Assembly: GCF_023055435.1 (NCBI RefSeq) | Contig: NW_025963779.1 | Location: 16,430,001-16,494,000, forward strand | Origin: Haliotis rufescens | Lineage: Eukaryota | Direction of reading: 5' to 3' | DNA length: 64,000 bases | Shown: positions 30,446-64,000 of the stretch, piece by piece | Numbering within the stretch: the first letter of the stretch is position 1 | How the letters are laid out: each line of letters starts with the position of its first letter | Notes under the pieces: generated by a model | What the model was told of the DNA's origin: nothing | The model's input: only the letters and a program-made list of their open reading frames with translations | The model's database searches: none | Program-made: the position numbers and the translations under genes

Positions 30446-32348
30446 GGAGTATCGGATACTCTAAGTTGCACATCCGGGTGCTTCATGTATGATCCACGTA
30501 CCAAATAATAACAGGACTGTAGCCCAATTCAGTTGGACAGTTTCTATTAGCTTTTTCACAGTCTTCACAATATTCTCGGCCAAATAATGAATGAGTCATA
30601 CATTAGGATATTTTCAGTTCCTTAATGGCATGCCACGAAAAATAAGTCACGGGATCACGTCAATTATGGAAGTAGCTTTAAAAACTTAATGGGTGTGTGC
30701 ATAATCTTTCATGGGTCCGTTATTCTTGACACAATGACTTTGTGTGTTAAACTTTAACATGAAGTACCTGCATAAGAACAATGTAAAATATAATATAAAT
30801 CTAAATTGGGAGAATGATGCTTTAAAACGCTATGCTTTACGATCTATATAAATACAATACATGCCATCTGCTTTCTCTAAGTATATTTTTTTTAAATATT
30901 TAAAAAACAGCAATTCATAATTGTTGTCACTTCATCGCGTCCATTCATTAAAAATGAATCGATCACTTCTGTTAAAAACATCAGCAGTAAAGTTGTGTGA
31001 TTCATGAAGATTAGTGACTGTTTAAAGTCGAAACTTATCTTAGTGTTGTTCATTGAGGCCAGCGACAACCCCGGCTACGAGAAGTCATCGCAGGATAGTC
31101 ATAAGACCCCACAGAGCCATTTTCGTGAGTATTTGGAATCTATTACACTGGACTTGAAGAAATGTGGACCGTTACTTACTTGTACATGCCAAACTGATTG
31201 TTGTATATGGCATTTACAAGCCTAAACGTGTATTTACACATATTTATGTAGATATACATTATATATATTTTGTTCAAAATGAACAACCTTGTTAATTTAA
31301 AAGGTAATACTAGGATATCTAGAGAATTGTGTGACGATAAAAGAAAAGTGAGTTATACACATGCTGCTGCATAGCATCATTATATTTTCACGTGACTGTT
31401 TTTAATATAAAATATTTTGAATATGCTATGTCTGATATCGTGACATTATGACAATATGCACAGTTTTAAATGTACACCGTACAATGCATGGCTTATTGTA
31501 CCATTTTGACAACACTGGTAGTATTTGATGATAAAACATATTGTTATCAGACGGATGATTATGCTTAACAATATTCTTGAAATTTAGAGTGTACAATAAG
31601 GAGTTACAGTGTTACAATAATGTTACGGTGTTGTAATTGTCGTGGATGGGAGTCCTTCAAATCCAATGCGAAAATGAACACGTTCAGTGGGAAGTGAAGG
31701 TGAACTGCCTCACAAACACAATCGGCATCCTATTTGCCCAGACCAGTACAGGAAACTGAGCTCAGGAGGTTGTGATACTGATTGGAAGGTTCTGGTTGAT
31801 TTAATAGAATAGTTTCCAAAATAAAGATGGATTATAATCAGTTATGCTTCTGTAAATATAAGCGACAAACCTCATTTCGTCATCATAAGAAATCTCTAGA
31901 GTCCATTCTACGACTATAAATGTATAAATCAGCATGTGTTTATCAACCACTGCCTAACAGTGATGATACCAGGTGTTCGCGAAAAGGGCAGCCTATCTTG
32001 GTGGTACATTTGCTGGACCACGCAATATACCTCTCATTATACCTCCTCTTGAAAAGAATCCATAAATCCCTGATAATTGAACATATGTTTTCTTATCTTG
32101 GAAGTTCAAATAATCCAAAAAGAAATTACAATGTATAAAGTGCTTGGTGAAATAGCCTATTACCTTTCTATAGGGATGTCCAAGCAAGAGAAGCATTCTA
32201 GTTATCACAACAAGTGTCTAGATAAGTGGGTTTCGACTGTACATACTAAAAGTAGTTTTGCACTGATCAACACAAACCATTAGTCTAAACATTTTCACAT
32301 TACGTACGGCAGCAAAACATTCCTTGTTTGTAATTTCAGACTGTGAAA

Positions 32349-33578
32349 ATGGGATTGATGGGTTTTCGGTTCTTGTTGGCAATGCTAACAACAGCTGCAG
32401 TTGCTGACGCATATCAACCAAAAGGGAAGGGTTATAGCATTCCACGGGTTCACCCAAAGGGATCACATCCAGTTCACCCGAAAGGAAATTTCGTCGCACC
32501 CGATACTCCCAACGTGAAAGAGCCTTTACTTCCTCAACTTCCACTGTATTTAAACCCAAAGGGTTCATTTCTCCATGACCACAGACGTTTAAGACCTGTA
32601 AATCCTAAAGGAGCTATTTTACCTTCAAGACCCTACTTTCCACGTTACAACCTGCGAGGATCCTACCTTCCTGCCCGCCCTAAAGGTCAGCTGGAACCAC
32701 ACACTTCAATAGGATTACATCGACCCTTAAATCCTAAAGGTTCACTAGCTCAGCCGACACAACCCTTGCATCCAAAAGGTACCCTAGACATGCCGAAATG
32801 GAAACAAACTTCATCGACACAGACGAAAAAGTCCTCCTCTGCAGAATACAAAGAAGAAACTTGGACCAAAAAGAAAGACACAAATACTGTTTACCCCAAT
32901 TATCCCTCTGACCCATCGGCCAACAAGCCAACCGTTTCTCCTGCGGACAAGAAGAAGCAAACGCACCCTTCCAACCAACACAATCCATGGGTCAATAGCA
33001 AAACTAACCCCACTAAATCCAATCAACAAACAAATGAACCTGCTGGACAAGTGAAGGATCTTAATAGCCAAGATCAACGTCAAAACCCATCTGTAGACCC
33101 GACTAACCATGGTCAACAAGGAAACAGTATTGATACAATTGGACAAAACTCAAACAACCAAGACCAAGGTCTGCCGCCAAGTCAACCTGGAAGTTGGCAA
33201 CATACAAACCCATCCACCAATGACCACATCCCTCGTGACACGTGGCAAGTGGTAGACCCATCAACTCAAGGCCAAAATCCATCTGACCCTTGGCAGACTC
33301 AAGGTCAGCCTCAAAATCCATCTGACCCTTGGCAGACACAAGTTCAGCCTCAAAATCCATCTGACCCTTGGCAGACACAAAACCAACCTGACACGTGGCA
33401 AGTGGTAGACCCAACAACCCATGGCCATAATCCATCTGACCCTTGGCAGACACAAAGCCAACCTGACACATGGCAAGGGGTAGACCCATCAACCCATGGT
33501 CAACCTCAAAATCCATCTGACCCTTGGTCACCAAGTGGTCGCCAACAGACCGAAATACACAATGCAATAGCTGGTTAA
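32349..33578 (+). CDS. Secreted Pro/Gln-rich repeat protein, paralog 1 (8 PKG motifs, 5 NPSDPW repeats), 409 aa
   Basis: Acceptor TTTCAG ends at 32339 and the first ATG is at 32349 (the ORF track start at 32343 is GTG). Signal peptide MGLMGFRFLLAMLTTAAVADA. A conserved paralog starts at 47222. AATAAA near 34007. Confidence 0.85.
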   Translation: MGLMGFRFLLAMLTTAAVADAYQPKGKGYSIPRVHPKGSHPVHPKGNFVAPDTPNVKEPLLPQLPLYLNPKGSFLHDHRRLRPVNPKGAILPSRPYFPRYNLRGSYLPARPKGQLEPHTSIGLHRPLNPKGSLAQPTQPLHPKGTLDMPKWKQTSSTQTKKSSSAEYKEETWTKKKDTNTVYPNYPSDPSANKPTVSPADKKKQTHPSNQHNPWVNSKTNPTKSNQQTNEPAGQVKDLNSQDQRQNPSVDPTNHGQQGNSIDTIGQNSNNQDQGLPPSQPGSWQHTNPSTNDHIPRDTWQVVDPSTQGQNPSDPWQTQGQPQNPSDPWQTQVQPQNPSDPWQTQNQPDTWQVVDPTTHGHNPSDPWQTQSQPDTWQGVDPSTHGQPQNPSDPWSPSGRQQTEIHNAIAG

Positions 33579-34204
33579 CAAACATCGTGACGGTGCTTCC
33601 AATGAAATAAGTAAGTATATAAGTAAATCCACACAAACAGTAAAAGCTTCAAATGGCGTAGACGTTTGTTCATGTGTGTATATGGTAATGCCTGAAATAT
33701 GATGTTTCGTATTTACGTTTATTATCGGAACTGTCTTTGTACCAATTAATATTTATATGATTAAGAGTTTATGTATTAACCCATTTTACCATGTTATGAC
33801 AGGTACAAAGATCCTCCTTTTCCCGTGCTATTGGTCACAAACTCAGAACAATCGCAGGGACGTACAACACGAAACTGGTCGATTCAAAGTCTATTCACTT
33901 GTGAGAGTTCCGCTAACAATACACAACATAAGCCGCCCAATTCAACTATATCACTATCTCATCTATGTGTTTCTACAATGAATATAGTTCCGCCGAGATC
34001 GAGATGAATAAATGAAAGAAGTTGTCGTCTTTGTATATGTTTTTTGTATGCTTCGGTTGTTCCCTTTCGTGACCCTTACAATTCCAGTGCCAAAGTGATA
34101 TACGCTTTCATTTTCGTCCTATATTATAACGAATATATGTTAACACAGCTGACAACTGATTTATAGTATTTTAGTAATATCACGGGAGACAGATTGACGA
34201 AGGA

Positions 34205-34365
34205 GTGAGTGAGTACGGTTTTACGCCGCTTTTAGCAATATTCCAGCAATATCACGGCGGGGGACACCAGAAATGGGCTTCACACATTGTACCCATGTCG
34301 GGAATCGAACCCGGGTCTTCGGCGTGACGAGCGAACGCTTTAAACACTGGGATACCCGACCGCCC
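34205..34365 (-). mobile_element. Family A SINE with target-site duplication TTGACGAAGGA
   Basis: Duplication at 34194-34204 and 34366-34376. The body is the reverse complement of 27703-27877. Confidence 0.9.
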
Positions 34366-34410
34366 TTGACGAAGGAGGAAAGCCCGAAGTCTTAGACGTT
34401 AATACTTTTG

Positions 34411-34477
34411 TGAGGTGAGGTGAAATGGGGTTTAACGTGGCGTCCAAGATTATTGCACTTATATAGCGACGTTCATG

Positions 34478-34563
<86 letters not shown>

Positions 34564-34808
34564 TGTACTAGTCCGGACTGATGCCGAGTTATAGTGCTAG
34601 CCGCAGTTTAACGTGATTACCTCACTCAGACACAGTATACTAGCTCCGGACCAAACATTCCTTGTTTTAGCCCCTTAATACCGAGTGCAAAACAGGGTAA
34701 CAACGAGTACTATCTTTTAACGTCTTTTGGTATGACGCGGCCGGGGATCAAACCCCGGACCTTCCGCTCTCCGGGCGGACGCTCTACCACAAGACCACGG
34801 AGGCGGTC
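34411..34808 (-). mobile_element. tRNA-derived SINE, family B (GACCGCCTCCGTGGTCT head, CACCT tail) with an expanded internal (GT)n at 34480-34561
   Basis: Reverse-complement match to 49671-49998 and 55408-55760. Confidence 0.85.
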
Positions 34809-35102
34809 TACACGGATATGGGACTGAGAAACCTAGAAACACAATCAGGGCAAACCAAGATTCCAACCAGCGACCATAGATTTCGGACGCCAAAAAGGGA
34901 CGCAACATTGTACAGTGAAGTGCGGTACCTTTGACGACTGGACAACCTGTGCCCCTTTGAAACATTAAATCCAGAACTCACAGGTAGACAGTGACGTAAC
35001 TCAACTTGTTTTGATATAAAAAAAAATAATAGACACCATTGTGTTTGAATGCTCACACACGCTTCATATTCTTACGGAATGTTTCCACTGCACATGTCTG
35101 GT

Positions 35103-35277
35103 TGTGTGAGTGAGTTGGGTTTAACAACGCCAGTTATATCACGGCGTGTCAGTTTAATGTAGGAGGGAAGCCCGTAGTGATGCAGGTCTCAGACGTTTAC
35201 CTTTCGGTGAAACCTACGAGCACGGGTATGGTGCTGACAAACCTAGAAACATATACGACTGGCCCACCCGTGCCCCC
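35103..35277 (-). mobile_element. Family C SINE, internally deleted
   Basis: Reverse-complement match to the head and tail of 4008-4267. Confidence 0.75.
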
Positions 35278-36329
35278 ATGTCTGGTTGACGTTGACGTTG
35301 AATGTTAAGGTCAATCCTCATCACCCACAGACAAACGTTTTATTCAGTAGTGAAGGCCCACAGTACAGATGAAGTGACAGAATAATGTGTCACATAAAAA
35401 TAGTTGCAACAACAATCAAACTATATTTTGTATAAAAGTAACACATGCTTTAGAAACAAAGCTAAAGAGTGGATATGGTTAACATGTTTTGAATTTAGTA
35501 TATTGATAATTGTCTGTTGACATTTGCACATCTGGAATAGACATTGATTGGTGCAAGCTTTAAATATAAATATTTTTTATCTCTTTGCCCATATATACAC
35601 AGAAACAGCAAGACAGCAAGACGTACATGAGCAAGGAGCACATTGTCTCTATGTCTCACATCACTTATAGTTAATAAAAACATTCTCGCATTCAGCAGAC
35701 ATGTATAAACGGTTCAACACCGTCTTTAGAAACCCATGTTTGTTGTAAGAGGCGACTAACAGGATCGGATGGTCAGGCTCGCTGACTTGGTTGATGCAAT
35801 TCATCGTATCCCGATTGCGTAGTTCGGTGCTCATGATGTCAATCCCTGGATTGTCTGGTTCAGGAACGTTGTTTCACGATGTTTCAGCAACATTATACTC
35901 ATGAAGTCATCCTAGAATTTAATATTTGATATGCACCACTTCAGAAACTCTGGAAAACAAAAACAAAAGATAAGTGACATTGTTAAAACGTTACATCGAG
36001 TAGAGAGGGAGTTTTACGAAATACAACAACCAACTTCAGCATGTCACAATTAACAGGTTCTTGGCTGAAGTACTTTAAGTTCTAAATGCCGCTTCTCGGA
36101 TGTTATCAAGCAAATCCTGTTCTGGCTGACATTCTTGCGTGTACGCCCACCCAATTCCGTAATTTTATTCCATGACAGATGGAGCTTTCTTACTTGCCTG
36201 AACAAGTGATATAAGATACAAAGCAACTTGAAACGGATGAGCAGGCAAACATGTAATCTCCTTAAATTTTGAACACCATTGTTTCCACCTATTAAAAGAC
36301 CTGTCATACTAAGACTAAAGCTGAGGCCT

Positions 36330-36770
36330 TAGACTTGAGAACTAAATCTGGCATATGTCCTTGGTTATTGCCAACTAGGCACTACTAATGATAGTAATGC
36401 TAGCTTTATGTTGTAGAGTGTATCTAATAACCTTTGTCGTCACCAAATGCATATGGGGGACAACCCAGTTGTTTGAACATTTACTGGTTCTGTGCCAGGG
36501 CACCAAGATCTGGAATTGAATCTGCCCAACTTAGCATTAGGCTAGCAAATCTATCAACAGTGTGTGGACCCCACAACATAAGTAACAATCCATTCAGAAT
36601 CTCCAAATTTACTTGACGCATCTGCTCTGAACGTAGAATCCAGTTAAAATTTATCCTTGTGTTAGATATCCTAGCTATGGTGAACACTGACATAGCAAGA
36701 TACTGTAAAGATGAGCGATACTAAGAGGAGCGATTTTACAGCAAGCCTTGCTATCTGAGAACCACTTTTA
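36330..36770 (-). mobile_element. Decayed DIRS/Ngaro-like retroelement fragment (RNase H to methyltransferase-like region)
   Basis: Motif LWGPHTVDRFAS in ORF 36481..36693 and a downstream VPSW; frameshifted. Confidence 0.6.
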
Positions 36771-36849
36771 CAGTGTGAATATACAAAACCTCTCTGAAAA
36801 CGATACAGTTGTGTAGCATGATACACTGGATAGGACTGCTGATGAGCCT

Positions 36850-37035
36850 AACCAGCCTCCACCTTGTCATACAGTATTCTGGAGAGTATTTTGTCACTCT
36901 GAATCTTTATGCATATACCTAAATATTTAACAGATGAGGCGGTTTTACTGGTCACTTTTATTTCAGTGCAGTTGGGTTCAGTGGAAGGGAATATGCTATC
37001 TGACCACTGAACGATATCGTAATTCAGTTTCATCC
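36850..37035 (-). mobile_element. Penelope-like reverse transcriptase remnant (paralog near 50120-50280)
   Basis: EIKVTSKTASSVKYLGICI...ILYDK resembles the PLE RT segment ELEIKDTT..SASYLD...LYDK. Confidence 0.45.
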
Positions 37036-37485
37036 AAGGAGTAGTTCAACAGTACTTGAAGATGGAATCCTCGACATAAATTTATCACTGAATAACTGAA
37101 GTACAGAACAGAGAACCCGAAACTTGCAGAACAGTGCAACAACTTTGGATGGCATGGTTTACAAAATAAATTGTTCGCTTATTTCTTTCTTAATTTGGTT
37201 CTTGTTTTCGAAAGAATGGAGCGCGTATACTAGCAAATACAACGGAATTCGAAATCTTTTGATACAGATTGCTTCAGGCGGTTATGGCAAGGTAACTGCC
37301 ATTGGCTAAAGAACAACAAACTTCAGTTGGCTTTTTCGATTGAATCACATATAATGTAAGAAATCCTTATCCACCCAATAGGGTTTTGGAAATAGACTCA
37401 AAGCAGTGTTGACACTACTCACTACAGTCTCACGGGACTGTAAGACAAAGGAATCAATAAGTACTCATTACAAAACCCACCGCCA

Positions 37486-37676
37486 TATAAATAGCCACAA
37501 CCGACACTTCGTGGAGGACGGTTGTGGAAATTACTACACCTCGTCTATCAAAATATGTCAGGTGTCGACCATGTATGACATATGTTTTCCGTGTCCAGAT
37601 TAACTTTGACAAGCCAACGTCCAACTATCATTACATTCTTCATGTGGATATCAGTCGGATCACCAGATGTACACAG
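37486..37676 (+). promoter_or_regulatory. Duplicated TATA plus putative non-coding first exon, with no cognate coding exon
   Basis: TATAAATA at 37486 and donor CAG|GTAAGT at 37677. Highly similar to 50723-50904. Confidence 0.5.
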
Positions 37677-40199
37677 GTAAGTAATTACTGAAACTAACTT
37701 GAAATAATGCTGAACAACATGTCTACATGACTGATTTCTGTTGACATTAACAGAGATAACGTCAATTAATTACCTGTGGAAAGTGGAAATTTGTTTAAAG
37801 GTTTAGAAGGTATTTTATTGCGTAATATTTCCTTTCATTGGTTATCTGATGGGGTGCATATATGAACTTAGGAGCTGTAAATGATGTCTAAAGAATTGGA
37901 CTGCTGCAGGTCAGCAGCTTGTTCTTGAAGCTGATTTACATGTGAATATGTGTTTCACATTTCAAAATGTTAAAAGCTTGCTTAATAAGATACATACAAT
38001 GAATAAAAGGACCATTTTAAAATTCACAATTTTCTGAAAAACATAATAAACAGAACGTCAATATCCATAAAAGTTAAGAAGTTGAAGATACCGCCTGATG
38101 GATAAAGGGTAGGGGAATACAGGTTTGTAAATAATGCATTTGCATCATGACATGTTGGGTGACACTAAAGTACAATGTGGGATTGAAAACGCAATATTTA
38201 CTTGATGTAATCACATTGGTATTATATTATGTCATTATTAAAATTTAGATATATCTTTCTGCACTTAGGTCTCGCTTCGTGACAGTTTAGTATCAATGCC
38301 AGTATGTCTAATGATTGGTAAACTGCTGGAATAAAATAATTTTTCTTCAGGTTTTACAAAAATTCAAATGTCGTTCATTACATATGGATGATGCTCTGAC
38401 AGTTGATATGTTGTGGGAACAGGCATCGTGGTTTGAAAAATATCTCAAACAAACATCCCACTTACTGTCAGTGCTTAATTATTTCCATCTTTTAAACTCT
38501 CCGTAGGTTTCGATAGAAACCTCAAAACACCGATAAAATAACAGTTTTACTATCAAGCACTGGTCTCATGTCTAGATAAACGAAGAGGGCGAGAGAGGGC
38601 ATGTTAAATTGTTACATGTATTTTTTTTAAATGAGGTTAGAGGGTGTCAGTGAAATGTGATACAGTTCAAAGGCCAATGCCACCGGCCCTAATCCCCTAT
38701 AATAAAATACAAGTCAATTTCAAATCGAGATTCGCAAATTGCTTCCCGTAGTCGCGACAGGATCCGCTGATCGGGGATTCTAATCGCAGATTTGTACAGA
38801 TGTTGATCCTTTGTTTGTCAGCACAAAACTCGAAGCTGGCTCACACGCCGTGATGTAAAAACAACTTGGTATCTGTGTAAGACTTGGTGTCTGTGTATCG
38901 GCTTAAACTATAATCCCCAGGAACCTTGCTTGCAGAGATCGATATAGCCTTATGAAACATTAAAAAAGGCAATCTAATATTTATGTCTACATGCACCAAG
39001 TACATGTAAACAATAGATTTGTGTCTGACTATCCCTTTAGGTTCTTAACAAAATGGAACTTTGAACACCCTCAATACCTCTAAAGTTTATTTATCATATT
39101 ACATCACTTATCCATGAGTTAATCTGTTATGCTTCATGTGGGTACTTCAAGATAATGTTCACATGTTCCAATCAGGTTTTACAAAATTGCGTCATTAATT
39201 TATGTGACACTGGCAGCAGACCAGCAAATGTTCCACTTTGCTAAATTTTTGGGACCACGGTGCAACCTGGTTTGTTTTTTGTTGTTGTTGTTGTTGTTTT
39301 GTGTTGTTTTTTGGTGTTTTTTTGTTTTGTTTTGGGGGTTTGTTTGTTTGTTGTTGTTTTTTTTTGGGGGGGGCATCCTGCTTTTCATATCAACATGCAA
39401 CTGGTGCTTTAACTAGGGTGTGGGCAAATCGCTCTCTGGACAGGAAATATCGATATCAATTTTCTGCAGTGCGATCGACAAACTTCGCCCCTTTCCTTAG
39501 TGGTCGGTCGTGTTCAGAGTGGTTTTCATTGGTCATGCTGTGTATTTATTCACCCAAATCGCAAGATCATTATTTTAACACGGATGGCAAGGAAGAATCT
39601 AGCTAGTCCATGAATTAGTTGTCCATAATTTTACTTGACATCTTGGCCACGCAAGACAACCGTCAACTTCCCTCGGGGTCCTTTCATTTCACAATTTACA
39701 CATACCATTTCACAGATAGACATGTCATCAAAGCACCTTTCCTGAAAGGCTAAAGATTATTTTGAAGTTTATTTTCGACCTCCTTTTGTTATATCACCTG
39801 TAAGTGGCAACAGGAAGGTAATCGAAAATTTATATTGTTGCAATTGCAACTCGCCCTGACTAAGGTTCCAGGTTTGTCAGTACCAGTGGGTTTTCACAAA
39901 AGTGGAAAGCTTCTAAGACCTGCATCACCTCGGGCTTTCACCCCGCATCAAGCAGACACGACGTGATATCCAGTATAAACAAATACTGTTCAAATCAGAT
40001 ATTGTCAAACTCAAGCATAGGTAGAGTGTAATGACAGTACCAAATGTTGAGAAACTGTGAAGTATTTATGTTCCAACTTACCAAGCATTCTTCTGCTGTG
40101 GTTCCGTGTTTGTTTTATAACTTTTTCAAGACTCTATTAAATCAAGAATCAACAGATGAATTATTAGATTTTGAAGGGAATGACTTTGTTAATTACCAC

Positions 40200-42800: not shown

Positions 42801-45779
42801 GGAGAGTTCAGGCTTAAGACGCACTCATGCTCACCTTTCAAAAGGCACGGCCTTCAAAGAAGCATAGATACTAGTATAAATAATATCAAACGGCATTTTA
42901 ACGATGCTAAGACCTCAACTTATGGCTTGTTGGTTGTTCCTCAGTGTGATCCATTGTCAAAGTCTAGAGAATGTATGATTGTACAAAGAAACTTTCCAGA
43001 AACTTTCAATTGGATCATCCCTCCCGTTATCAAGACATTTCTATGCCCTGGTTATGGACAAGGCTCAAGATCGTCATGCAAAATGCCTCATCTCATTGAT
43101 AGGTACATTATTAAAAAGTACCATATGAACAAAATGATTGTCTGCTTTTTTATATTGGAGGTGTAAGGTCATTTGATACTTTTTGCTCGTGAGATGTCTT
43201 GAGACAGAAGGGGATGTGTAGTGACTAGAGATGTGTTGGCAAGTATAAATTAAATTTGGAGCCGCCACTTTACCACCATTTCATCAAAATTGAAATTTCA
43301 GATTACTCAGGTGAACAATTGGCTTGCCTTGAGTTTGCATGTGTTTGTGGTGGGTGCCACCGGTGAGGCAGGATACTCTCGCCACTATCGTCACTATTTG
43401 ATAGTGATTCATAAACACATACTCATGACATATTGGAATCGTAAATCAACTCTGTTCTCGGCAGAGATTTATTATGAATGTAAAACGAGTTTTGTTTTCG
43501 AATTAATCAAGACAACTTTCCACTCAAAACCATTCAAGTTTCATCATTGTACAAGCCATATGTGCAACAATTGTAGCTGACAATGAATGATGCAAGCAGG
43601 TTCACAATAACGTCAAAGTAATATATGTTTAGAAAAATGTAAACATAAAGTTTGATCTCTGTAGAAGTAAGCATGCATTGGAAACAATGATTAGAACCAT
43701 CATTTTCAAAAACCTGAAAGATGACAATCACATTGATTTTTCACTAATCTTATCCCAAACCTTTTTAAACAAGGGTCCCGCCCTAGAGAAAGTATATACG
43801 AATTTTCATGGCATACACACATGTAAGAATATACAGGTATGACATCCATGAATAATAATCATCATTTGCACTACATCAATGCAGGTATTGGGATCTCGAA
43901 ATATGTGTTGTATACTAATTACTGAAGCCGTCAAAAGAGAGTCGATGTTTGTTTCTGGCCCAACTGTAGATTAAATAGCTTCCGTTAGTAATATATATTA
44001 TTACTCACTCAGTCTGTGATAATAGTGATAACAAATACTACTTTAGTTCAGTATGTGCAACACTAAATATATAAAATCATATAAAATTAATACATAACTG
44101 TTATGAATTGTTATCCTAGTATTTCTATTGCTTAGTCTTCAAATTCCTCTATCATATTCAAAGTAGACTTACGTATTCTAAAGGGTGATCTCAAGTACTA
44201 AGTGCTTTTGGTCTGCTGCATTAGGATTATGCTGCAGCCTTGATAGCTATATATCTTCTTGAAATAAAACAAAATAAATATATATAAGAGACCATTGCTA
44301 GAACATTATTTGTAAGTTGGAATTAGGGACATATGGATGTAGATTCCAATAACATTTTATGCTAAATACATTAAACTCATTATAGAGAAATGCAAAACTT
44401 ATGATTATGTGTCAGATCGTCTCTTGGACTCAAAACACTTGTGGCACAATCAGAATCATCGGTTGTGTTTGTTTGTTTGTGTATTGTTTACACTGCATTC
44501 AGCAATGTTCAAAGACAGCGACCTCTAAAAATCTAACGTTTACGTTTCTTTGTTTTGTCGGGACCGCACTGTGCTCGTGGCTTTCGCCTGCATCACTTCG
44601 GGCTTTCCTCCCATATCAAACTGTCTCGCCGTGATATAACTGAATGTAGACTTTCAAAGCGGCGCTAGACCAAACGCACTCACTCACTCATGACTAAGGC
44701 TGCGGCTCAGATACAATACCCATACCTGTTCGGGAAACGCTCGTGACAAAATAATTATGCGTAGAATGGACCACTTTCAATGCAGAGCGCCAACAGATCT
44801 CGCTCGGAAAAATATTGTGGAATTGTATACAAATATGCTTGGCGTCTAAAGCAGGAAAGATATATGGACCGTCGCATGCTATTTTCTAATTTCCACAAGA
44901 AATATACGACGACTTTATCATTGTATTGCAAACATCAAACCGATAGTACATTTTCAGTATTAGACACACCTATGTATGTGTTATAATTGGATTTCGTATA
45001 AGTGCATTTCAAGGTGATCGACTACTTGACCCCAAAGACATGACGAGGACAGATAGGAGCGCTGAAAGATAAAAGGAAATTATTATTATTAATCGTTTCA
45101 GTTATGTCAAATGTCTTGATCGACCGATCTGAGAAAGTATCCACGTCAATACCAGAGTAACGTCACAATGCTTGCATGCTTCTACACATGTGTCGTAATT
45201 ATTTTTATAACACGGTTCTATAACCCAGATGGCTAAGGTTCCATTTTCAATTGTATTGCTCAAGCAAATTGTGTATGTTTTGTAAATCCCAGGCACACAC
45301 CATATGTCAATACAATGTTATGGTACAAATTGATTCAAATTTGACATCTAGTATAACGCTAAAGCAAATGTACTCGTATATATGTATATGCATCGTCGGA
45401 GATCTGATCTGATAGTATATGTACTTGAATGAACATTTTGACAATGAAGAGTATGGTCCAATCGAAATTCATGTCAAACTTCGAAAATAAGTTTCAAACT
45501 TGTCATTTTTACGACATTCCATGGGTGTGTGCATATTCTTTCATGGGTCCGTTATTCTTGATAGAATGACTTCGTGTTTTAAACTGTAACATTAACTTAC
45601 TCGTACCTGCATAAAAACAATGTATAATATAATAAAAATCAGAATTGGGAGAATGCTACTTTTAAAACGCTATGCTTTACGATATATATGAAATGAAATT
45701 TACATCTGCGTTCTCTAACTATATTTGAAATATATTTAAAACCCAGCAATTCATAATTGTTGTCACTTCATCGTGCCGT

Positions 45780-49560: not shown

Positions 49561-49670
49561 TGACTGTCTTATAAGTCGTGAGTGAGTTTCAGTTACGATC
49601 ATATCTGCAGTTCAGTTATCTCCCATTAACCAAGAAGTTATTCAGCAGCAGGAGTACGCCATTAACAAGA

Positions 49671-49998
49671 GACCGCCTCCGTGGTCTAGTGGTAGAGCAT
49701 CCGCCCGGAGAGAGGAAGGTCCGGGGTTCATAGCAAAAGTCGTTAAAAGATGGTACTTGTTGTTACCCTGTCTGGCGCTCGGCATTAGGGGGCTAAAACA
49801 AGGACTGGTCGGCTCGGAGTCAGTATAATGTGTCTGAGTGGGGGATTCATGTTAAACTGCAGCATGGTATCTCAGTGAGCTAGCACTATAAATCGGCATC
49901 AGTCCGGACTAGTACAAGCAGCCACACACACGTACATACACGTCGCTATATAAGTACAATAATCTTGGACGCGACGTTAAAGCCCATTTCACCTCACC
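49671..49998 (+). mobile_element. Family B SINE
   Basis: Near-identical to 55408-55760. Confidence 0.85.
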
Positions 49999-50722
49999 AT
50001 TTTCAAAAAGTGATACCTTTGCAGCCCTTGGAATCAACCTGTATTAAAAAGGGATAATTTGGCAGCCCTTGAAGTAATTCACTTTTAAAGTTGGAGCTGC
50101 TGTATTATTGCTCGACAAAAGGGAAAGTATTTTGTCACTCTGTATCTTTATAATTATATCTAAATATGAAACATATTAGGTAACTGGTAACTTTTATTTC
50201 AAGTTCAGATGGATTCCATGGAATGGAATTGGCTATCTGAACATTGAACGATATCGTAATTCAGTTTTAACCAAAGAGTTGTTCAACAGTCCTTGAAGAT
50301 GGAATCTTCGACATAAATTGTTCACTGAATTACTGAAGTACAGAACAGAGAATCCTAAACAGTCAATACACTTTTATGGATGACCACTTTTTTTAAACAA
50401 ATGGTTCGCTCATTTCTTTCTTAACTTGGTTCTAGCTTTGTTGAAAGAATGAAGCGCATATGACCAGCAAATACAGCTGAATGTGAAACAATTTGCAAGA
50501 AATGCCTTTGGTTGGTTATGGCAAGGTAACTGTCATGGGCTACATAACAGCAAACTTCAGCTGTCTTTTTCGATTAAATCACATACAATGTAAGAATACG
50601 ATTCAAATCAATAGGGTTTGGGAAATAGAAGCAAAAGAATTTAGATACTACTCACAACACAGGATTGTAAGACAAAGGAATCAATAACTATACAAAACCA
50701 AGTATGCATGTTCTCCCCGCCA

Positions 50723-50904
50723 TATAAATCACCACTTCGTGGAGGACGGTTGTGGAACTCACTACATCTCATCTATCAAGATATGTCAGGTGTCGACCAT
50801 GTATGACATATGTTTTACGTGTCCAGATTGACTTGGACAAATCAACGTCCAAATACCATTACCTTCTTCAGGTGGATATCAGTTGGATCACCAGATGTAC
50901 AAAG
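50723..50904 (+). promoter_or_regulatory. TATA box and putative non-coding exon 1 of the 833-aa secreted protein gene
   Basis: TATAAAT at 50723 and donor AAG|GTAAGT at 50905, 1.2 kb upstream of the acceptor at 52117. Conserved in the duplicate at 37486. Confidence 0.5.
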
Positions 50905-52122
50905 GTAAGTAATTAGTAAAACTAACTTGAAATAATGCCGAAAAACATGTCTACGTAACTGTTTTCCTTTGACATTGACAGCGACATCAATGAATTACCT
51001 GTAGAAAGTGTGGAAATTTGTCAAAAGGGTTTATTAACTTATATTTCTTTTCAATTGTTATCTGATACATTTATGAGCTTACGAGCTGTAAATTGATGAC
51101 TAAAGAATTCGACAGGTTAATGGCTTGTTCTGAAAGCTGATTGAAATGTGTATTTCACATTTCAAAGTTTTAAAGACTTGCCTCAATAAGATTCATACGA
51201 TGAATAAAGTTACCATGAATTATTAAACATTTCCAAATTTACAATTTTCTGAAAAACATAACAGTAAGACAATTTTCATTTTAATACTTGAAGATAACGC
51301 CTGATTGATATAGGGTAGGGGAATACAGGTTTGTAAGTATATATTTACATCATGACATTGAAGTACAATGTAGGTTTGAAAACAAGAAATATACTTGATG
51401 TAATCGTATTATTTGTGTATGTCATTATTTATATTCAAAATATATCTTACTGCACTTAGGTCTCGTTTCTTGACAGTATTGTATATTAAATGATTGGTTA
51501 GATATGCTTCAGAACTATTTGAAAGTATGGATGAAATTACATATTATAGTCCTCTCCATTTGACAAAGAACACGAAATAACGCGATTATTGAACAAGTCA
51601 TTCCGGCTCTCAGGAAGACTTACTTACAGAAATGACAAATCTTGGACAGTGCGCTTTTCAAGTTATATCCATTTTGCTGGTAATAAACATCATCATACAA
51701 TTTTGATCACGTGGGTACAATCCGAGTACGGTCACGTTTTTCCTATAATTCGTGCTAGTACGTACAACGCGAATGTATGTGTGTGCGTGCGTATTTTTGC
51801 CTTTGCTTATGTTGTATTTGCGTAAGATGTAAATTATGTAGTAAACGTGTTATCACATTTCAGAAATGCTGATGCACCTTCTCAACATTTAAAACTGCCT
51901 AATTTATATCCAACGAAGTATAGAGTCCATCCCAGTTTAGAGGATGTTGGGGTGACTGGATAGGGTTGTTTCAGAAGACTGTGTTGCATTATCTTTCTTC
52001 GTTTTTTAAATTAATTGTTCACACCATTCCAAAACAACCGATATTGGTGCCAAATTCAGATGTATTTAAAATAGCTTTCCAAATTTATATCGAATTTGTA
52101 CATTTCTTTAATTTCAGCCGAG

Positions 52123-54624
52123 ATGAGCAGAATGGTAAACCGTTTCCTCGTTCTTGCAGTACTGGTTTCGAGTGCCTGTGCAACACGAATCGTTAGTCTG
52201 CCTAAAGGAGTCTTATTTCGGACTGGGACAACTGGAAATGGTAGAATGATGGCATTACCCACCGTAGGACCAATACATCAAGACCACCTAGCTCCAATTC
52301 AAAGAGCTGGAGACACTGTTCCTTCTACTCCGACTGGATCAATGATGGTATCACCAAGCAGAGAATCACGTGTGGTGAGGACAGGAGGTCCAGGGGCAGT
52401 TTCTTCCATTCCCTCCCAGTCTCCTTTACCAACATATTCTACTGGCGCCATTCAACCAATGACCGCAGTACCTTCCACAATGAGTTTCTCTCAGTTATTT
52501 GCTTCTCAACATACTGCCACCAGACCGTCTTTCTTTCATCAAGCTGCAAGTGGTTCATTTCAACCAAGACTATTTCAGCCTCCTGTAACAGGTCCGTATC
52601 AACCACCTGCCTTCCCACCACCTGTAACCGCTTCGTTTCATCCAACATTCTTTCAACCATCAGTATCTGGTTCGATTCAACCAGCGGCCTTCAAACAACC
52701 TGCGTCCGGTTCTTTTCAACCAGATTTTTTTCCATTTGTATTTGGTTCCTTTCAACCAACCATCTACCAACCAGCAGTACCTGGCTTATTGCAACTAGCT
52801 ACTCAACCAACTGGGACTGGCTTGTTTCAACCATTTACTGAACCAAATACAACCCCAAACATGTTTCAGCCTGTGACTCCGGCACTAACCTTAAGTGGAT
52901 CGTTACCTCAAACCAGTATTTGGCCCTGGAATCCTGCACCAAATCTACCTCTATCACCTGTCACTGGAATCGAGTTTCCGAAACAAACGCTTCTGACGAG
53001 CCTTAATCCACGCACTGGACGACTAGATATGACCCAACAACTCGGCCTATTCCCGCAACCGATCAAGATGGATCAGTTTCAACTGCAACATCCATATGTC
53101 CTGCTGCAACCAATGAACTCAGTACAAAATATTCAGACCAAGTTAACAAATCCTACCAAACAGCTAATCCTACCTGAACCTAGTTTTCCCCTAACCACAG
53201 CTGATCTATTTGAACCGAAAACCCCATCTGATTCAACACTGACAGTAGTCAATGCAACAGCACTTACCCCTTCTAACCCTGTACACCCTTCTTTAACTAA
53301 CCCATTTCAACCTGACACTGTATTAATCAATTCGTTGCAAACACAGACCCAACTTGGTCAAGTGCAACCAATTAACCCAAACGACAAAGGTCATACAAGA
53401 CTAGCATCTGACCCCAGGCCGACAATGAACACACCAAATCCTAGTAAACCGCAGGCCCCACTTGACAGTGTAATGCCCTCCCCGACAGAAAGTCAGTTTC
53501 AGCCAGCAAACCCGCCTTACCAAGGCTTTACGACGGTCAAAGAAGGCAAATTGCAATCCCAAACTACAAATGGCCAAAGAGGAACTGTTCAACCAAAAAC
53601 TACACTTGACGCTAATGTGCAATGGACGCCATTCGACCCAGTGTACGCACAAACCAAATCAGATTCTTTGCCACCAATAAGTCAGGATCATATCTCATCT
53701 GATCCATTATTGTCACACAACGCTATAGACCTTAGTCATCCACCAAGCCCATCTCTCAAGGGGAAACCTATAATGCAAGAAAACAAAATTCCGTTGCCAC
53801 ACTATAAGGAAAGTATGACTACCGTGGACAGTTTGATACATCAGATCACGTTAAATCAAATTGAGCCATTACATCCTCAATTACATTCTGACCCATTATT
53901 ACATCTAACTAAGGCTGCCCCAAGTCAAATACAAGAGGCATCAGGGCGGCCGCAGCCTAGTTCTTCAAAAGAAGGTCAGTCGCAAATCATTTCTGACTCC
54001 AGACAGATGTTGACTACAAATCAGCTGCAACCACAAAACCCTTTTGATAGTTTGTCTGGCATGTCCATAGCGGACCCAAGTCTACCACAAAGTCCATCTG
54101 ATTCAATCATGTCCATACCCCCATTAAATCAACTTCAACGGCTAGACCCATCTGACCCCTGGTTGACTATCACATATGAAGCACAAAACCCAGCAAAACG
54201 CAAGCAACAGCTCAATTATTTGGACCCTACGCTCCCTGTGACCAATTTAGAACCACTAAAGCCTATTATCACATCTGACCCTGGACCACTAGCAACCATG
54301 GCAGGATCACACCAGCCATCAAACACGTCTGACACGTCTTCATCTATGAACTCAATCAACCAAGCTCTTACGCAAATCGCATCTGAACCTGGACCAAATA
54401 TGACTACGTCGAACACACAAGATCCCCTTTCACCTGTGCCAGACTTGACCATAACATATCCGAGCCAAGTACAAAACCCGTCAGCACCTACGAACTCGAA
54501 CAATCCACAAATCCCCGGTGACTGGCTAACTGCACTTAATAGACGAACACCACAATATTGGATCAATCAAATACCAACTACACACTCTAATGCTCCACAA
54601 GGAATCCAGAGCGGCCCTGTATAG
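52123..54624 (+). CDS. Secreted Pro/Gln/Thr/Ser-rich (mucin- or matrix-like) protein, 833 aa
   Basis: Acceptor TTTCAG ends at 52117 and ATG is at 52123. Signal peptide MSRMVNRFLVLAVLVSSACA. The open frame is 2.5 kb, with 13-aa GSFQP repeats and SDP motifs. AATAAA at 55045. Confidence 0.88.
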   Translation: MSRMVNRFLVLAVLVSSACATRIVSLPKGVLFRTGTTGNGRMMALPTVGPIHQDHLAPIQRAGDTVPSTPTGSMMVSPSRESRVVRTGGPGAVSSIPSQSPLPTYSTGAIQPMTAVPSTMSFSQLFASQHTATRPSFFHQAASGSFQPRLFQPPVTGPYQPPAFPPPVTASFHPTFFQPSVSGSIQPAAFKQPASGSFQPDFFPFVFGSFQPTIYQPAVPGLLQLATQPTGTGLFQPFTEPNTTPNMFQPVTPALTLSGSLPQTSIWPWNPAPNLPLSPVTGIEFPKQTLLTSLNPRTGRLDMTQQLGLFPQPIKMDQFQLQHPYVLLQPMNSVQNIQTKLTNPTKQLILPEPSFPLTTADLFEPKTPSDSTLTVVNATALTPSNPVHPSLTNPFQPDTVLINSLQTQTQLGQVQPINPNDKGHTRLASDPRPTMNTPNPSKPQAPLDSVMPSPTESQFQPANPPYQGFTTVKEGKLQSQTTNGQRGTVQPKTTLDANVQWTPFDPVYAQTKSDSLPPISQDHISSDPLLSHNAIDLSHPPSPSLKGKPIMQENKIPLPHYKESMTTVDSLIHQITLNQIEPLHPQLHSDPLLHLTKAAPSQIQEASGRPQPSSSKEGQSQIISDSRQMLTTNQLQPQNPFDSLSGMSIADPSLPQSPSDSIMSIPPLNQLQRLDPSDPWLTITYEAQNPAKRKQQLNYLDPTLPVTNLEPLKPIITSDPGPLATMAGSHQPSNTSDTSSSMNSINQALTQIASEPGPNMTTSNTQDPLSPVPDLTITYPSQVQNPSAPTNSNNPQIPGDWLTALNRRTPQYWINQIPTTHSNAPQGIQSGPV

Positions 54625-55407
54625 TCAAACTCTGTAAGTTTCAGTTGTCTCACAATCTTAAAAATATATCAGATCAAAACTTAAAAACAAGAATAATTCG
54701 ACCCATGAAAGGGTATCTTTACATAATCAATCCCAGGAACTGGGCGTACTGGATGTTTAAAAAAATAATGTGTTTTGGGTCAGAAAGAAATTGTTTGACC
54801 CTTGGTATGCCTTGGTGCGCTGACTAAACAAATATACTGTCTCAAACAAACAAACAAACAAAATCCAAGCCAGAATATGAAATGTCTTGTTCCTCATTCA
54901 TTGTTCTTAAATTTTATTTTTTTCTCTGCAGATTACATTGATGGGAAACAAGTGGAAGAACCTTTGCATAATCCCACAACCGTTCATTACCATAAGTATG
55001 TACTGTTCAATAGTGTATTGTGGATTATCGTCAATCTGGGCAGTAATAAATACGTGTAATAAATGTGTAATGTATTGGCATATCCCTATTTGTAAAACAA
55101 ATCTAATTTTCAGTGTAATAAAACTTGTTTGTCTTAATACATTATATTTGTATTATTTGTTTATTTTTTCTACAAACACTATCTTTGAGTGGCATTGATA
55201 AGCTACACTGGTATCAAATTGAATGATGAAAGGGTCGATTTTAGATGTCCATTGTTTTCTTCTCGGCTCTATAGGCTTCTGTTGTCTGTGTCAGGTCATG
55301 CATTTCATAAGATAAACAAGACTCGAAAGCTGTCATATCATACCACATAGAGCAACAGCTGTGTCACAAGTTCCAGTGGACCAGTCCTACCATCTTCATC
55401 TAAACCT

Positions 55408-58700: not shown

Positions 58701-58859
58701 CTCACAGGACGCGCTGCCTTGTCGAACACATCCAGAACTTTCCGGAGAATGTGTGAAGAGACACAAACACTTCAGCCTTCTGCATTACCGTGATTGTCAG
58801 AAGGGCTCTATTCCTGGCAGCAAACCCGGGTACTTTCCCAATGTCAATCAACAGTTCGT

Positions 58860-62019: not shown

Positions 62020-63141
62020 ATGGGTCCTGTCCTCTTTACTCTATGGCTCTTTCTGATGACGTTGTTGCCATGCCCCATGACCATGTTTCATGCAACTGAT
62101 CAACAAAGAAACTGCACATTTTGCGCTCCCCTTCCACCTCAGGAATGGTTAGGTATTGAGGATAACAGAGGACTGATGAGAAGCAACATATTACCAAGAC
62201 AAACTCAATGGGTTCAATATGTAAACAGAGCCAACCAGAAACCCCGACGTGTGCACCGTCAAACTGGATTTATAAGAGGAACAGAAATACCGAAAGTCCA
62301 GAAGAGACCCTTTGTTACCAATGGGAAATTTGTTTCCAGACTGGTCAACCCTTCGCGTTCTGTATCCAGTGGTATCGTAAATAGTATCACAAATCCAAGG
62401 AATCGTTTTAGTTTTAGAAACCAAGCCCGATCTAAAACTCAAAAGAAGGCAGTGCCAAAAAATATTCTGAACCGAATTTCAGATCTTATCAATCCCCGCA
62501 GAAGACAGTCAATACATTCTCAGCCATCAAACCGTCGAGGTATTCAACGCAAGACCAAATCCCAAAACATCCGTACCTCAATTTCAGACCTTATCAATCC
62601 CCGCAGAAGACAGTCAAGACCTTCTCAGCCACCAAACCTTCGAGGTATTCAACGCAAGACCAAATCCCAAAACATCCTAAACTCAATTTCAGACCTTATC
62701 AATCCCCGCAGAAGACTGCTAAGACCTTCTCAGCCACCAAACCTTCGTGGTATTCAACGCAAGACCGAATCTAAACACAATCGAAAATCAATTTCAAATC
62801 GTGCTAATCAATACAGAGGGCAGTCGATGCCTTCTCTGCCAGGATACGTTCGTGGTATTCAACGCAAAACCGGGTCCAATAACATCCGACAACCAATTCC
62901 AAATCGTGCTAATCCACGCAGAAGACAGTCAAGACCTTCTCAACCAGCATACCTCCGTAGTATTCAACGCAAGACTAAGTCCAAAAACATCCGGAAGCCA
63001 ATATCAGATCGTGATTATCCACACAGAGGAGAGTCGATGCCTTCTCTGCAAGGATACGTTCGTGCTATACAAAGTATATCCGTATCCCCAAACAACCGAA
63101 ACTCAATTCAGACCTGTACAATCCACGCCTGGGACATATAA
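62020..63141 (+). CDS. Secreted highly basic Arg/Ser/Asn/Gln-rich protein with about 6 tandem 35-aa repeats, 373 aa
   Basis: Acceptor TTTAG ends at 62004, and the start context is ACAATGG. Hydrophobic leader MGPVLFTLWLFLMTLLPCP. A 105-bp repeat period (62476, 62581, 62686, 62791, 62896, 63001) stays in frame. Confidence 0.85.
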   Translation: MGPVLFTLWLFLMTLLPCPMTMFHATDQQRNCTFCAPLPPQEWLGIEDNRGLMRSNILPRQTQWVQYVNRANQKPRRVHRQTGFIRGTEIPKVQKRPFVTNGKFVSRLVNPSRSVSSGIVNSITNPRNRFSFRNQARSKTQKKAVPKNILNRISDLINPRRRQSIHSQPSNRRGIQRKTKSQNIRTSISDLINPRRRQSRPSQPPNLRGIQRKTKSQNILNSISDLINPRRRLLRPSQPPNLRGIQRKTESKHNRKSISNRANQYRGQSMPSLPGYVRGIQRKTGSNNIRQPIPNRANPRRRQSRPSQPAYLRSIQRKTKSKNIRKPISDRDYPHRGESMPSLQGYVRAIQSISVSPNNRNSIQTCTIHAWDI

Positions 63142-64000
63142 GACCCCAAACAGGACATCCTCATACAAGTCAGCCCAGAGCTGCTTTACCTTGGTGAGCA
63201 TGTTAAATATTACATCTTATGTTGACTCCATTAGATAGAGCTATCACAACATGTTGTTGGCGTAAGTATTTACAGAATAGCCGTTCCACAAAGCGACTGT
63301 AGCGCTAGAATGATCGTAACTCCCATTTTTTTTACGATAGACGTGGCGTCACGATCGCTCTGCGGAACTAGGCCCAGGAGTAACTTCCGAGTCCCAAGAC
63401 ATCTTCCAAGTCAATCTATCGTTAAGGCGACATCACATAAAATTTGCCGTCATGTACAATGGATGACGTCAACGTCAACTATTTGCGAAACTGATTTCAT
63501 ATGACATCACGTTTGGGCTTCTTCGCACACAATGAAAACAATATAACATTATTTACGAACTAGGCAAATTTACTCCATGGACATGAGAAATGGCAATGTT
63601 GTTGTCTCTTTTAGAACGTTCCGTGTTAAACTTCTGTATTTTATTTCTAGTGCAGTGTGGAGATGACCAACTGACCCCGAGAGTCACCCTTGGCGTTATA
63701 GCACTTTCACGGCATAATAACCAGAGTGTAAGTTGGTCAGTTCTATTGTTCACATATCAAATGAGCGGCCTTCATGCTGAGCATTACTGGAAAATTTCAT
63801 TAAGATCTTCACCGTGCCTTACTTCTAGTGGATTGATCAAGCGAAAATTTTAACCTTCTTATCAACTAACATTTGTATCAGCGAGATCCTGCCTGTACAG
63901 ACACGAGGGAAAAAGACAACTCAGCCAAGTCAAGTGATGATCGGAGATAAACGTGTTATTTGACTACAAAAGCCAAGTGATTTTAACAATTGAAAGACAT

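What the first reader, a model, noticed from the sequence alone, without database searches (positions are those of the whole stretch)
32339..63660. Cluster of four orphan secreted repeat-protein genes with one shared architecture, including an intron just after the stop codon
Seen: each CDS is a single exon starting 5-15 nt after a strong acceptor (32339, 47212, 52117, 62004). Each is followed by a donor shortly after the stop: GTAAGT at 33611 (+32 nt), 48288 (+40) and 54634 (+9), and GTGAG at 63194 (+52). Candidate acceptors follow at about 33802, 48508, 54931 and 63649. Between paralogs 1 and 2, most of the predicted 3'UTR intron diverges while the last exon is conserved. Known: exon junctions less than about 50-55 nt after a stop escape nonsense-mediated decay. 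Inference: despite little protein similarity, these are one rapidly diverging family. They could be co-secreted components of an extracellular material such as shell matrix, periostracum, mucus/adhesive or egg coat.
Basis: partly seen in the sequence, partly recalled or inferred. Interest (0 to 1): 0.72.

Follow-up and report, generated by a model that had tools for sequence, protein, structure and literature searches.

The report
Abalone gene duplicate borrows neighbour's start
Four abalone genes for predicted secreted, low-complexity proteins sit side by side with a similar exon layout, but only the first two are clear relatives, and the duplication that made gene 2 also copied the likely first exon of neighbouring gene 3 in front of it, which would let an old protein be made under a new gene's control.

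Summary
All four ORFs (409, 341, 833, 373 aa), their acceptors and the post-stop donors are at the stated places. Spliced contigs confirm the 3'UTR intron 48288-48508 exactly, in two studies; one of these contigs carries gene-1-type letters. A third study's contig leaves gene 3 exactly at its donor. Gene 4's junction is unverified.

The 'one family of four' reading is not supported. Genes 1 and 2 are an ordinary tandem duplicate (72% identical). Gene 3 resembles them only weakly, probably through composition. Gene 4 shows no homology and is absent from the protein collection searched.

The duplicated block ends about 600 nt past a TATA-plus-donor exon that lies 1.2 kb upstream of gene 3 (50738-50904). 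Its 90%-identical copy (37510-37676) precedes gene 2, and database proteins from two Haliotis species begin in that copy and join gene 2 in frame. Gene 2 is therefore likely a chimera: gene-1 coding sequence behind gene-3-type 5' control.

This is a known mechanism (Drosophila chimeras, quail ITCH-ASIP) in a known protein class (mollusc secreted low-complexity proteins). Tissue and function are untested.

The parts
27181..38293 (+). Copy 1 of the tandem-duplicated block (may begin by 26554): upstream sequence, gene 1 coding exon and UTR exon, then the gene-3-type first exon and about 600 nt of its intron
   Evidence: collinear self-BLAST hits to 43075-51484, 68-87% per block
28007..28156 (+). 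Most conserved non-coding stretch of the duplicated block (copy at about 43739-43888): GC box, TATATA, possible donors at 28105 and 28154; candidate native promoter/first exon of genes 1/2, or a gene-conversion tract; its left part derives from a dispersed repeat
   Evidence: 128 of 130 identical against about 85% in flanks; 5 weaker genomic matches to the left part; role inferred
32349..33578 (+). Gene 1 CDS, 409 aa: signal-peptide-like N-terminus, basic block with 8 PKG, K/T linker, Q-rich part, Trp repeats (D[PTI]W x8)
   Evidence: in protein collection as P0001; Atlas model pLDDT 0.34
33611..33802 (+). Gene 1 3'UTR intron, 32 nt after the stop; last exon from 33803 with AATAAA at 34007
   Evidence: homologous to the spliced gene 2 intron; the X9 junction contig has gene-1-type letters on both flanks
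37510..37676 (+). First exon E1b (5' end approximate; TATA at 37486, donor CAG|GTAAGT at 37677), a copy of the exon upstream of gene 3, joined to gene 2 in database models
   Evidence: P0002 = translation of 37575-37676 plus 47213-48244 exactly; H. cracherodii P0003 starts the same way; 90% identical to 50738-50904; 2 copies in the genome search
43075..51484 (+). Copy 2 of the duplicated block (may begin by 40992)
47222..48247 (+). Gene 2 CDS, 341 aa from the Met after the acceptor (378 aa in the database model)
   Evidence: contig of X1 covers 47212-48287; dN/dS 0.48 against gene 1
48288..48508 (+). Gene 2 3'UTR intron, 40 nt after the stop; last exon 48509-48685
   Evidence: GT..AG joint 48287>48509 in X1 and X9
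50738..50904 (+). First exon E1c (5' end approximate; TATA at 50723, donor AAG|GTAAGT at 50905), the likely first exon of gene 3
   Evidence: homology to E1b and position 1.2 kb before acceptor 52117; junction not seen in reads
52123..54624 (+). Gene 3 CDS, 833 aa, P/S/T/Q-rich, signal-peptide-like N-terminus, 9 FQP motifs
   Evidence: full-length 840-aa relative P0006 with 749 identities; contigs in X1, X5, X9, X10; single copy
54634..54931 (+). Gene 3 3'UTR intron, 9 nt after the stop; last exon from 54932 with AATAAA at 55045, 55058 and 55117
   Evidence: X5 contig matches to 54633 with 54 further letters; an X9 contig reads through to 54720; acceptor inferred
62020..63141 (+). Gene 4 CDS, 373 aa, pI about 12, hydrophobic N-terminus, six 35-aa Arg-rich repeats; not in the protein collection
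   Evidence: contigs at 62009-62248 and 62688-63008 (X9) and 62687-62890 (X5)
63194..63650 (+). Predicted gene 4 3'UTR intron (donor 63194 or 63262); the last exon would run past the window end to AATAAA at about 64051
   Evidence: sequence only; an X5 contig covers 63754-64000; junction not seen

Best explanation
This is a local group of three apparently separate kinds of Haliotis-restricted genes for predicted secreted, likely disordered proteins, in which a tandem duplication copied gene 1's coding exon together with the likely promoter and first exon of gene 3, so that gene 2 is likely a gene-1-type protein transcribed, at least in part, from gene-3-type 5' control. The ancestral order would have been gene 1, gene 3, gene 4. 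The duplicated block ran from upstream of gene 1's coding exon to about 600 nt into gene 3's first intron. The stranded first exon (37510-37676) has no gene 3 acceptor behind it and splices 9.5 kb onward to gene 2's acceptor at 47212. Because each whole CDS lies on one exon between non-coding exons, such a swap leaves the mature protein intact. The proteins would most likely be structural components of an unmineralised extracellular material (periostracum, mucus or adhesive). They would assemble through basic Lys/Arg blocks and Trp/Gln repeats; this step is inferred from composition only. The intron after the stop is a real inherited feature of genes 1/2 and likely of gene 3, not proof of common ancestry.
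For: SHOWN
- Collinear duplication 27181-38293 against 43075-51484.
- E1b and E1c are 151 of 167 identical, with flanks 83-84%. This is the same depth as other non-coding blocks of the duplication (77-90%), so one event explains both.
- Only 2 copies of this exon were found in the genome search.
- Both copies keep a TATA box and the two best-scoring donors I scored (9.2 and 8.5 bits).
- H. rufescens XP_046378422.2 equals E1b plus gene 2 letter for letter. H. cracherodii XP_071098157.1 starts with the same E1b-type peptide.
- The X1 contig of gene 2 has 200 further 5' letters that lie on nothing in 44100-64000.
- Purifying selection between genes 1 and 2: dN/dS 0.34 over residues 22-150 (Fisher p 0.0002) and 0.48 overall.
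- Relatives were found only in Haliotis: 3 hits among 1.84 billion representatives, the most distant H. asinina XP_067664543.1 at 41%. No Pfam family at cut-off for any of the 4.

KNOWN BACKGROUND
- Lineage-specific low-complexity secreted proteins dominate mollusc mantle secretomes (PMC5400390, passages).
- Tandem duplications with both ends in genes make chimeras (PMC4069613, passages).
Against: - The E1b-to-gene-2 junction rests on annotation-derived proteins, not on reads I saw.
- The 200 extra letters of the X1 contig did not lay on the 90%-alike E1c (mean depth 0.59 in that bin, threshold 88%). They are also about 38 nt longer than a TATA-started E1b, so they could come from the 43.7-43.9 kb block, just outside the stretch laid.
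- That block is 128 of 130 identical to 28007-28136 and looks like a promoter. Gene 2 may have kept its native promoter, with E1b a minor start.
- The E1c-to-gene-3 junction was not seen. The named database proteins for gene 3 start at Met247 without the signal peptide, which a model holding that junction would not do.
- E1b and E1c carry 6 and 5 upstream ATGs, which is odd for an abundant secreted protein.
- A weak gene 1/gene 3 similarity (z about 5) and a shared AATAAATGAAA in genes 1, 2 and 4 (3 of 796 AATAAA) leave older kinship open.
- The acidic C-terminal block of gene 1 is not net acidic in the H. asinina relative.
- No tissue data.
Confidence: 0.6

Rival explanations
1. All four genes descend from one ancient cassette (non-coding first exon, single coding exon, intron just after the stop), and their coding exons have turned over beyond recognition.
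For: Same strand, same layout, adjacent. Gene 1 against gene 3 beats 300 of 300 shuffles, as does gene 2 against gene 3. DP[SWLT] motifs occur 10 times in gene 1 and 7 times in gene 3. AATAAATGAAA occurs 3 times on the two strands of 464 kb, in the last exons of genes 1, 2 and 4 (noticed after the fact).
Against: The alignments fall in several registers, with composition-adjusted E 0.008-0.05 in a 4-sequence database. The H. asinina relative against gene 3 is matched by 13 of 300 shuffles, and against gene 4 by 227 of 300. Whole-genome searches with gene 3 pieces or P0007 do not cross-hit. The 15 DNA comparisons involving gene 3 or gene 4 were each matched by 8-197 of 200 shuffles. No copy of E1 lies upstream of gene 1 or gene 4.
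Confidence: 0.2
2. Gene 2 is a plain whole-gene duplicate that kept its own promoter (43.7-43.9 kb block). E1b is a leftover of gene 3's start that yields only minor or read-through transcripts, picked by annotation because it gives the longest ORF.
For: The 128-of-130 block with GC box, TATATA and donors lies inside the duplicated unit. The X1 contig's 200 extra letters did not lay on E1c.
Against: E1b stays more conserved (90%) than its flanks (83-84%), with intact TATA and donor. The same junction appears in models of two species. The left part of the conserved block belongs to a dispersed repeat, and conversion could explain its identity.
Confidence: 0.3
3. Gene 4 is not a protein gene but a 105-nt tandem repeat that keeps a frame open, with chance splice-like sites.
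For: No match among 1033 candidates in the protein collection. No Atlas hit. A transposase remnant lies just upstream. Overlapping frames of 112 and 171 aa are also open. No junction was seen.
Against: About 150 non-repetitive codons with a hydrophobic N-terminus follow an acceptor. An X9 contig begins 4 nt after that acceptor, and X5 and X9 contigs cover parts of the ORF. dN/dS is 0.68 among repeat units (pairs not independent).
Confidence: 0.2

Closest known systems
Lineage-specific secreted proteins with repetitive low-complexity domains (RLCDs) of mollusc mantle secretomes (PMC5400390, passages read)
   Same: Signal-peptide-like start, P/Q/S/T- or R-rich repeats that expand and contract, no Pfam domain, relatives only within the genus
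   Different: Mantle expression is not shown. No probe peptide was found in the H. laevigata shell-proteome supplements, apart from one hit in an unrelated Lys-rich protein. The database names ('sporozoite surface protein 2-like', 'basic salivary proline-rich protein 2-like') look like composition-driven automatic labels (my inference).
Quail fawn-2/beige ITCH-ASIP fusion made by a 71-kb tandem duplication (PMC6466734, abstract read)
   Same: A tandem duplication leaves one unchanged gene plus a copy whose intact CDS is transcribed from the neighbour's 5' region
   Different: That is a mutation within one species with a measured expression effect. Here the arrangement appears in models of two abalone species, has diverged (dS about 0.26) under purifying selection, and no expression shift has been measured.
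Chimeric genes from tandem duplications in Drosophila (PMC4069613, passages read)
   Same: Duplication ends in two parallel neighbouring genes; about 10% of gene-capturing duplications there form such chimeras
   Different: Those join coding sequences. Here only a non-coding first exon is joined, though one of its ATGs falls in frame and would add 37 residues ahead of the signal peptide.
Genes with stop-proximal 3'UTR introns (10.1101/677666, abstract read)
   Same: Exon junction less than 50 nt after the stop (32, 40 and 9 nt in genes 1-3)
   Different: Described in vertebrates, where some are still NMD targets; whether junction-dependent NMD acts in molluscs was not found.

Membership tests
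Mollusc lineage-specific secreted RLCD proteins | N-terminal signal peptide | tested here: inconclusive
   Hydrophobic 10-mers score 2.15, 2.15, 2.7 and 2.53; A-x-A sites seen by eye in genes 1-3; SignalP not available; database gene 3 lacks the signal peptide, while P0006 has it
Mollusc lineage-specific secreted RLCD proteins | Repetitive, low-complexity, disordered sequence | tested here: met
   Tandem repeats in genes 1 and 4; biased composition in all four; Atlas model of gene 1 pLDDT 0.34; genes 2-4 not modelled
Mollusc lineage-specific secreted RLCD proteins | No known domain, restricted to the lineage | tested here: met
   0 of 4 reach a Pfam cut-off; named hits only in Haliotis; none for gene 4; searches were limited in length range
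Mollusc lineage-specific secreted RLCD proteins | Expressed in mantle | not testable with these tools
   Runs are coded and give no tissue
Shell matrix proteins | Peptides found in shell organic matrix | tested here: inconclusive
   PMC6003135 supplements: 6 probes in files 1-12 gave one unrelated hit, 6 probes in files 1-24 gave none, 6 probes in all 27 files gave none; H. laevigata sequences may differ from the probes
   Met for genes 1/2, weak for gene 3, absent for gene 4
   Only genes 1/2 align at the 3' end; the first exon is shared only by genes 2 and 3
   Seen for gene 2 and a gene-1-type contig, half seen for gene 3, not seen for gene 4
Chimeric duplicate by 5' exon/promoter capture | Duplicated block ends inside the neighbouring parallel gene | tested here: met
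   Homology stops at 38293/51484, after the E1 donor and about 630 nt before gene 3's acceptor; that E1c belongs to gene 3 is inferred
Chimeric duplicate by 5' exon/promoter capture | Transcript joins the captured exon to the recipient CDS | tested here: inconclusive
   Exact in database proteins of two species; junction not seen in reads
Chimeric duplicate by 5' exon/promoter capture | Recipient takes on the donor gene's expression pattern | not testable with these tools
   Contig depths cannot rank genes, and tissues are not given

The most novel reading that the evidence does not exclude
Gene 2 is a fixed, selected chimera in which a secreted matrix-type protein was moved into another gene's tissue programme by capturing that gene's promoter and first exon. 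The 'whole CDS on one exon between non-coding exons' layout of this cluster makes coding exons swappable cassettes. This would be a concrete mechanism for how mollusc secretomes keep recruiting new low-complexity proteins.
Probability: 0.35. Interest if true: 0.65.

Novelty: new member of a known kind. Interest (0 to 1): 0.4.

Why it matters
Mollusc secretomes are known to gain and lose lineage-specific low-complexity proteins quickly, and small cis-regulatory changes have been proposed as the cause (PMC5400390, passage), but worked cases are needed. This locus offers a ready three-way test: gene 1 (original control), gene 2 (same protein type behind gene 3's exon) and gene 3 (donor of the exon). 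It also points to annotation gaps: gene 3 is truncated at Met247 in the named database proteins, and gene 4 is missing from the collection searched.

Tried and rejected
SEARCHES THAT FOUND NOTHING USABLE
- Run search: no RNA holder listed. All four runs laid are guessed RNA contigs. Depths were not used to rank genes, and parts without cover were not read as silence.
- Pfam, PDB sequences for gene 4's first 160 aa and the Atlas: no usable family; best Atlas feature score 0.82.
- Gene 4's two weak genomic hits (E 0.002, 0.007) are unrelated simple tandem arrays. The C594 hits of P0007 are a stop-ridden tandem array.
- Mapping the H. asinina 13-residue N-terminal extension onto a candidate first exon gave nothing: best ranks 107-1770 in the window.
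- Earlier scan findings: nothing shown in 3 answered look-ups.

PAPERS
- Peptide probes matched 0 papers in full text.
- Peptide and accession probes matched 1 paper, through a guessed LOC prefix, for a different accession.
- Topic searches listed no paper on this locus. I judged that from listings and abstract starts only.
- The H. iris preprint gave no relevant passage; its supplements could not be seen.

REJECTED
- NMD escape as the explanation for the layout: it would only explain why such introns are tolerated.
- The automatic database names as evidence of function.

LEFT OPEN
Gene 1's own junctions and the E1b junction have no direct read evidence from the stretch upstream of 44100.


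Full report
1. OBSERVATION. The four ORFs are real: 32349-33578 (409 aa), 47222-48247 (341 aa), 52123-54624 (833 aa) and 62020-63141 (373 aa), all on +. In random positions of the surrounding 464 kb, my acceptor pattern occurs 3.8% of the time, GTAAGT within 55 nt 1.3% and GT[AG]AG 8.6%. Among ATG-started ORFs of 170 aa or more in those 464 kb, I judged by eye that only these four combine a hydrophobic start, an acceptor and a donor. The gene 2 protein is 100% identical to a record named Haliotis rufescens, so this is abalone DNA.

2. TRANSCRIPT EVIDENCE. I laid 4 of the 24 listed runs on 44100-64000; all are contigs guessed to be RNA. The joint 48287>48509 (GT..AG) stands in X1 and X9, from two studies, exactly as predicted. 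The X9 junction contig has loose ends at 48237 and 48581. The 3' one matches gene 1's last exon at 33877 in 12 of 13 letters, in a stretch that gene 2 lacks, so I read it as a gene-1-type transcript of a related organism. An X5 contig matches gene 3 up to 54633, the base before the donor, and has 54 more letters; an X9 contig reads through the same place. Gene 4 is covered in pieces (62009-62248, 62687-63008, 63754-64000) with no junction seen. A rival donor at 63262 would put its intron 120 nt after the stop.

3. ONE FAMILY? Genes 1 and 2 are 72% identical, with dN/dS 0.48 overall and 0.34 over residues 22-150. Their H. asinina relative (41%) keeps the signal-peptide-like start, the PKG block, the K/T linker and the Trp repeats. 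Gene 3 beats 300 of 300 shuffles against gene 1 and against gene 2. However, it aligns in several registers, with composition-adjusted E of only 0.008-0.05 in a 4-sequence database, and 13 of 300 shuffles match it against the H. asinina protein. Gene 4 shows nothing convincing. Of 18 DNA comparisons of UTR introns, last exons and acceptor regions, only the 3 between genes 1 and 2 beat all 200 shuffles; the best other was matched by 8 of 200. Genome searches found genes 3 and 4 as single copies. One loose thread: AATAAATGAAA occurs 3 times among 796 AATAAA, in the last exons of genes 1, 2 and 4. I noticed this after the fact.

4. Self-alignment shows a tandem duplication, 27181-38293 against 43075-51484. 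It extends well past gene 1's poly(A) signal and ends about 600 nt after an exon with a TATA box and a strong donor. Copy E1c (50738-50904) lies 1.2 kb before gene 3's acceptor. Copy E1b (37510-37676) has no gene 3 acceptor behind it. The two are 151 of 167 identical against 83-84% in their flanks, and no third copy was found. The database protein for gene 2 is exactly the translation of 37575-37676 followed by 47213-48244, and the H. cracherodii model begins with the same peptide. In the single-copy ancestor this exon lay downstream of the gene-1-type coding exon, so it cannot have been that gene's first exon. It most likely belonged to gene 3. Gene 2 is therefore likely a gene-1-type CDS fed by a gene-3-type first exon. 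A full duplication of genes 1 and 3 followed by loss of the second gene 3 CDS would give the same result.

5. WHAT SPEAKS AGAINST IT. I did not see the E1b or E1c junctions in reads. X1's gene 2 contig has 200 unlaid 5' letters, but they did not lay on the 90%-alike E1c and are longer than a TATA-started E1b. A block at 28007-28156 / 43739-43888 is 128 of 130 identical (binomial p about 1e-6 for one window). It has a GC box, TATATA and possible donors, and partly derives from a dispersed repeat. It could be the native promoter of both genes, or a conversion tract. The named database proteins for gene 3 start at Met247, although an 840-aa relative keeps the full frame and signal peptide. E1b and E1c hold 6 and 5 upstream ATGs. 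The one at 37575 is in frame with gene 2, whereas its counterpart would open a 36-codon frame ending over gene 3's start. A TCAGT[CT] initiator-like motif (consensus recalled, not from a call) about 25 nt before each donor could mean a much shorter exon.

6. LIKELY FUNCTION (inferred). All four start with a hydrophobic segment, lack Pfam domains and are low-complexity. Gene 1 is modelled at pLDDT 0.34. Gene 1 has a basic N-terminal block (20 K+R against 5 D+E in residues 22-150; 8 PKG in the protein) and a C-terminal block rich in Gln and Trp (22 Q, 7 W, 11 D+E, 1 R). Gene 4 is strongly basic. This fits structural proteins of an extracellular organic material that assemble by charge and aromatic contacts and may be cross-linked. 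I put about 0.5 on such a role and cannot choose the tissue. Probe peptides were not found in the H. laevigata shell-proteome supplements (PMC6003135, supplements searched only). That weakly favours an unmineralised material, but the species may be too diverged for the probes.

7. COMPARISON. The proteins fit the known class of lineage-specific secreted low-complexity proteins of molluscs (PMC5400390, passages). The duplication works like the quail ITCH-ASIP fusion (PMC6466734, abstract) and the Drosophila duplication chimeras (PMC4069613, passages). The NMD argument is weak. Stop-proximal introns can be NMD targets in vertebrates (10.1101/677666, abstract), and my one search found nothing relevant on molluscs. 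No paper on this locus turned up; subscription papers and bioRxiv supplements were not searchable.

8. VERDICT. Observation partly confirmed; interpretation partly supported. New members of a known kind, with a probable first-exon capture as the point of interest. Interest 0.4. The boldest reading has probability 0.35 and interest 0.65.

Noticed in passing
window 17411-17788 (-) and 13890-16004 (-): A PB1-domain exon (Pfam PF00564, E 8e-6, above cut-off) upstream of a 704-aa Arg/Gly/Cys-rich ORF without Pfam match, possibly one gene; related copies at 1-1450 and upstream of the window
   Followed up: partly
window about 1470-23380 and about 3.8-28.7 kb upstream of the window (L040-L042): Large inverted duplication, mostly 87-95% identical, carrying the PB1/Arg-rich gene, a GST-like exon and a 192-aa Gly/Arg-rich exon (22140-22718), with a partial third copy at the window start
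   Followed up: partly
window 4167-4505 (+): Exon with a GST N-terminal match (PF17172, E 8e-5, below cut-off)
   Followed up: no
window 60724-61407 (-): DDE-type transposase remnant (PF13358, E 9e-4, below cut-off) about 600 nt before gene 4's acceptor
   Followed up: no
L003:8308-9153 (-) and L005:4135-4797 (-): Polysaccharide lyase family 14 ORF downstream of the cluster (PF21294, E 1.5e-76); the second copy judged by sight
   Followed up: partly
L023:3822-6587 (-), L025:4559-7771 (-), L028:7038 to L029:158 (-): Three Toll-like-receptor-like ORFs (label by sight, recalled) with long N-terminal RDAS- or SQGA-type repeats; the third is split between two frames
   Followed up: no
window 52123-52860: The named database proteins for gene 3 omit the first 246 codons, including the signal peptide; an unnamed 840-aa cluster member keeps them
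   Followed up: yes
window about 47600-47780: The H. cracherodii gene 2 model is 58 residues shorter than the H. rufescens one and lacks the K/T-rich linker; real deletion or model intron unknown
   Followed up: no
window 33560-33578 and 48237-48247: Genes 1 and 2 read the same few bases before the donor in different frames, so the stop has moved while the intron stayed
   Followed up: partly
window 34007, 48665 and about 64051: The 11-mer AATAAATGAAA appears only at the three putative poly(A) sites of genes 1, 2 and 4 in 464 kb
   Followed up: partly
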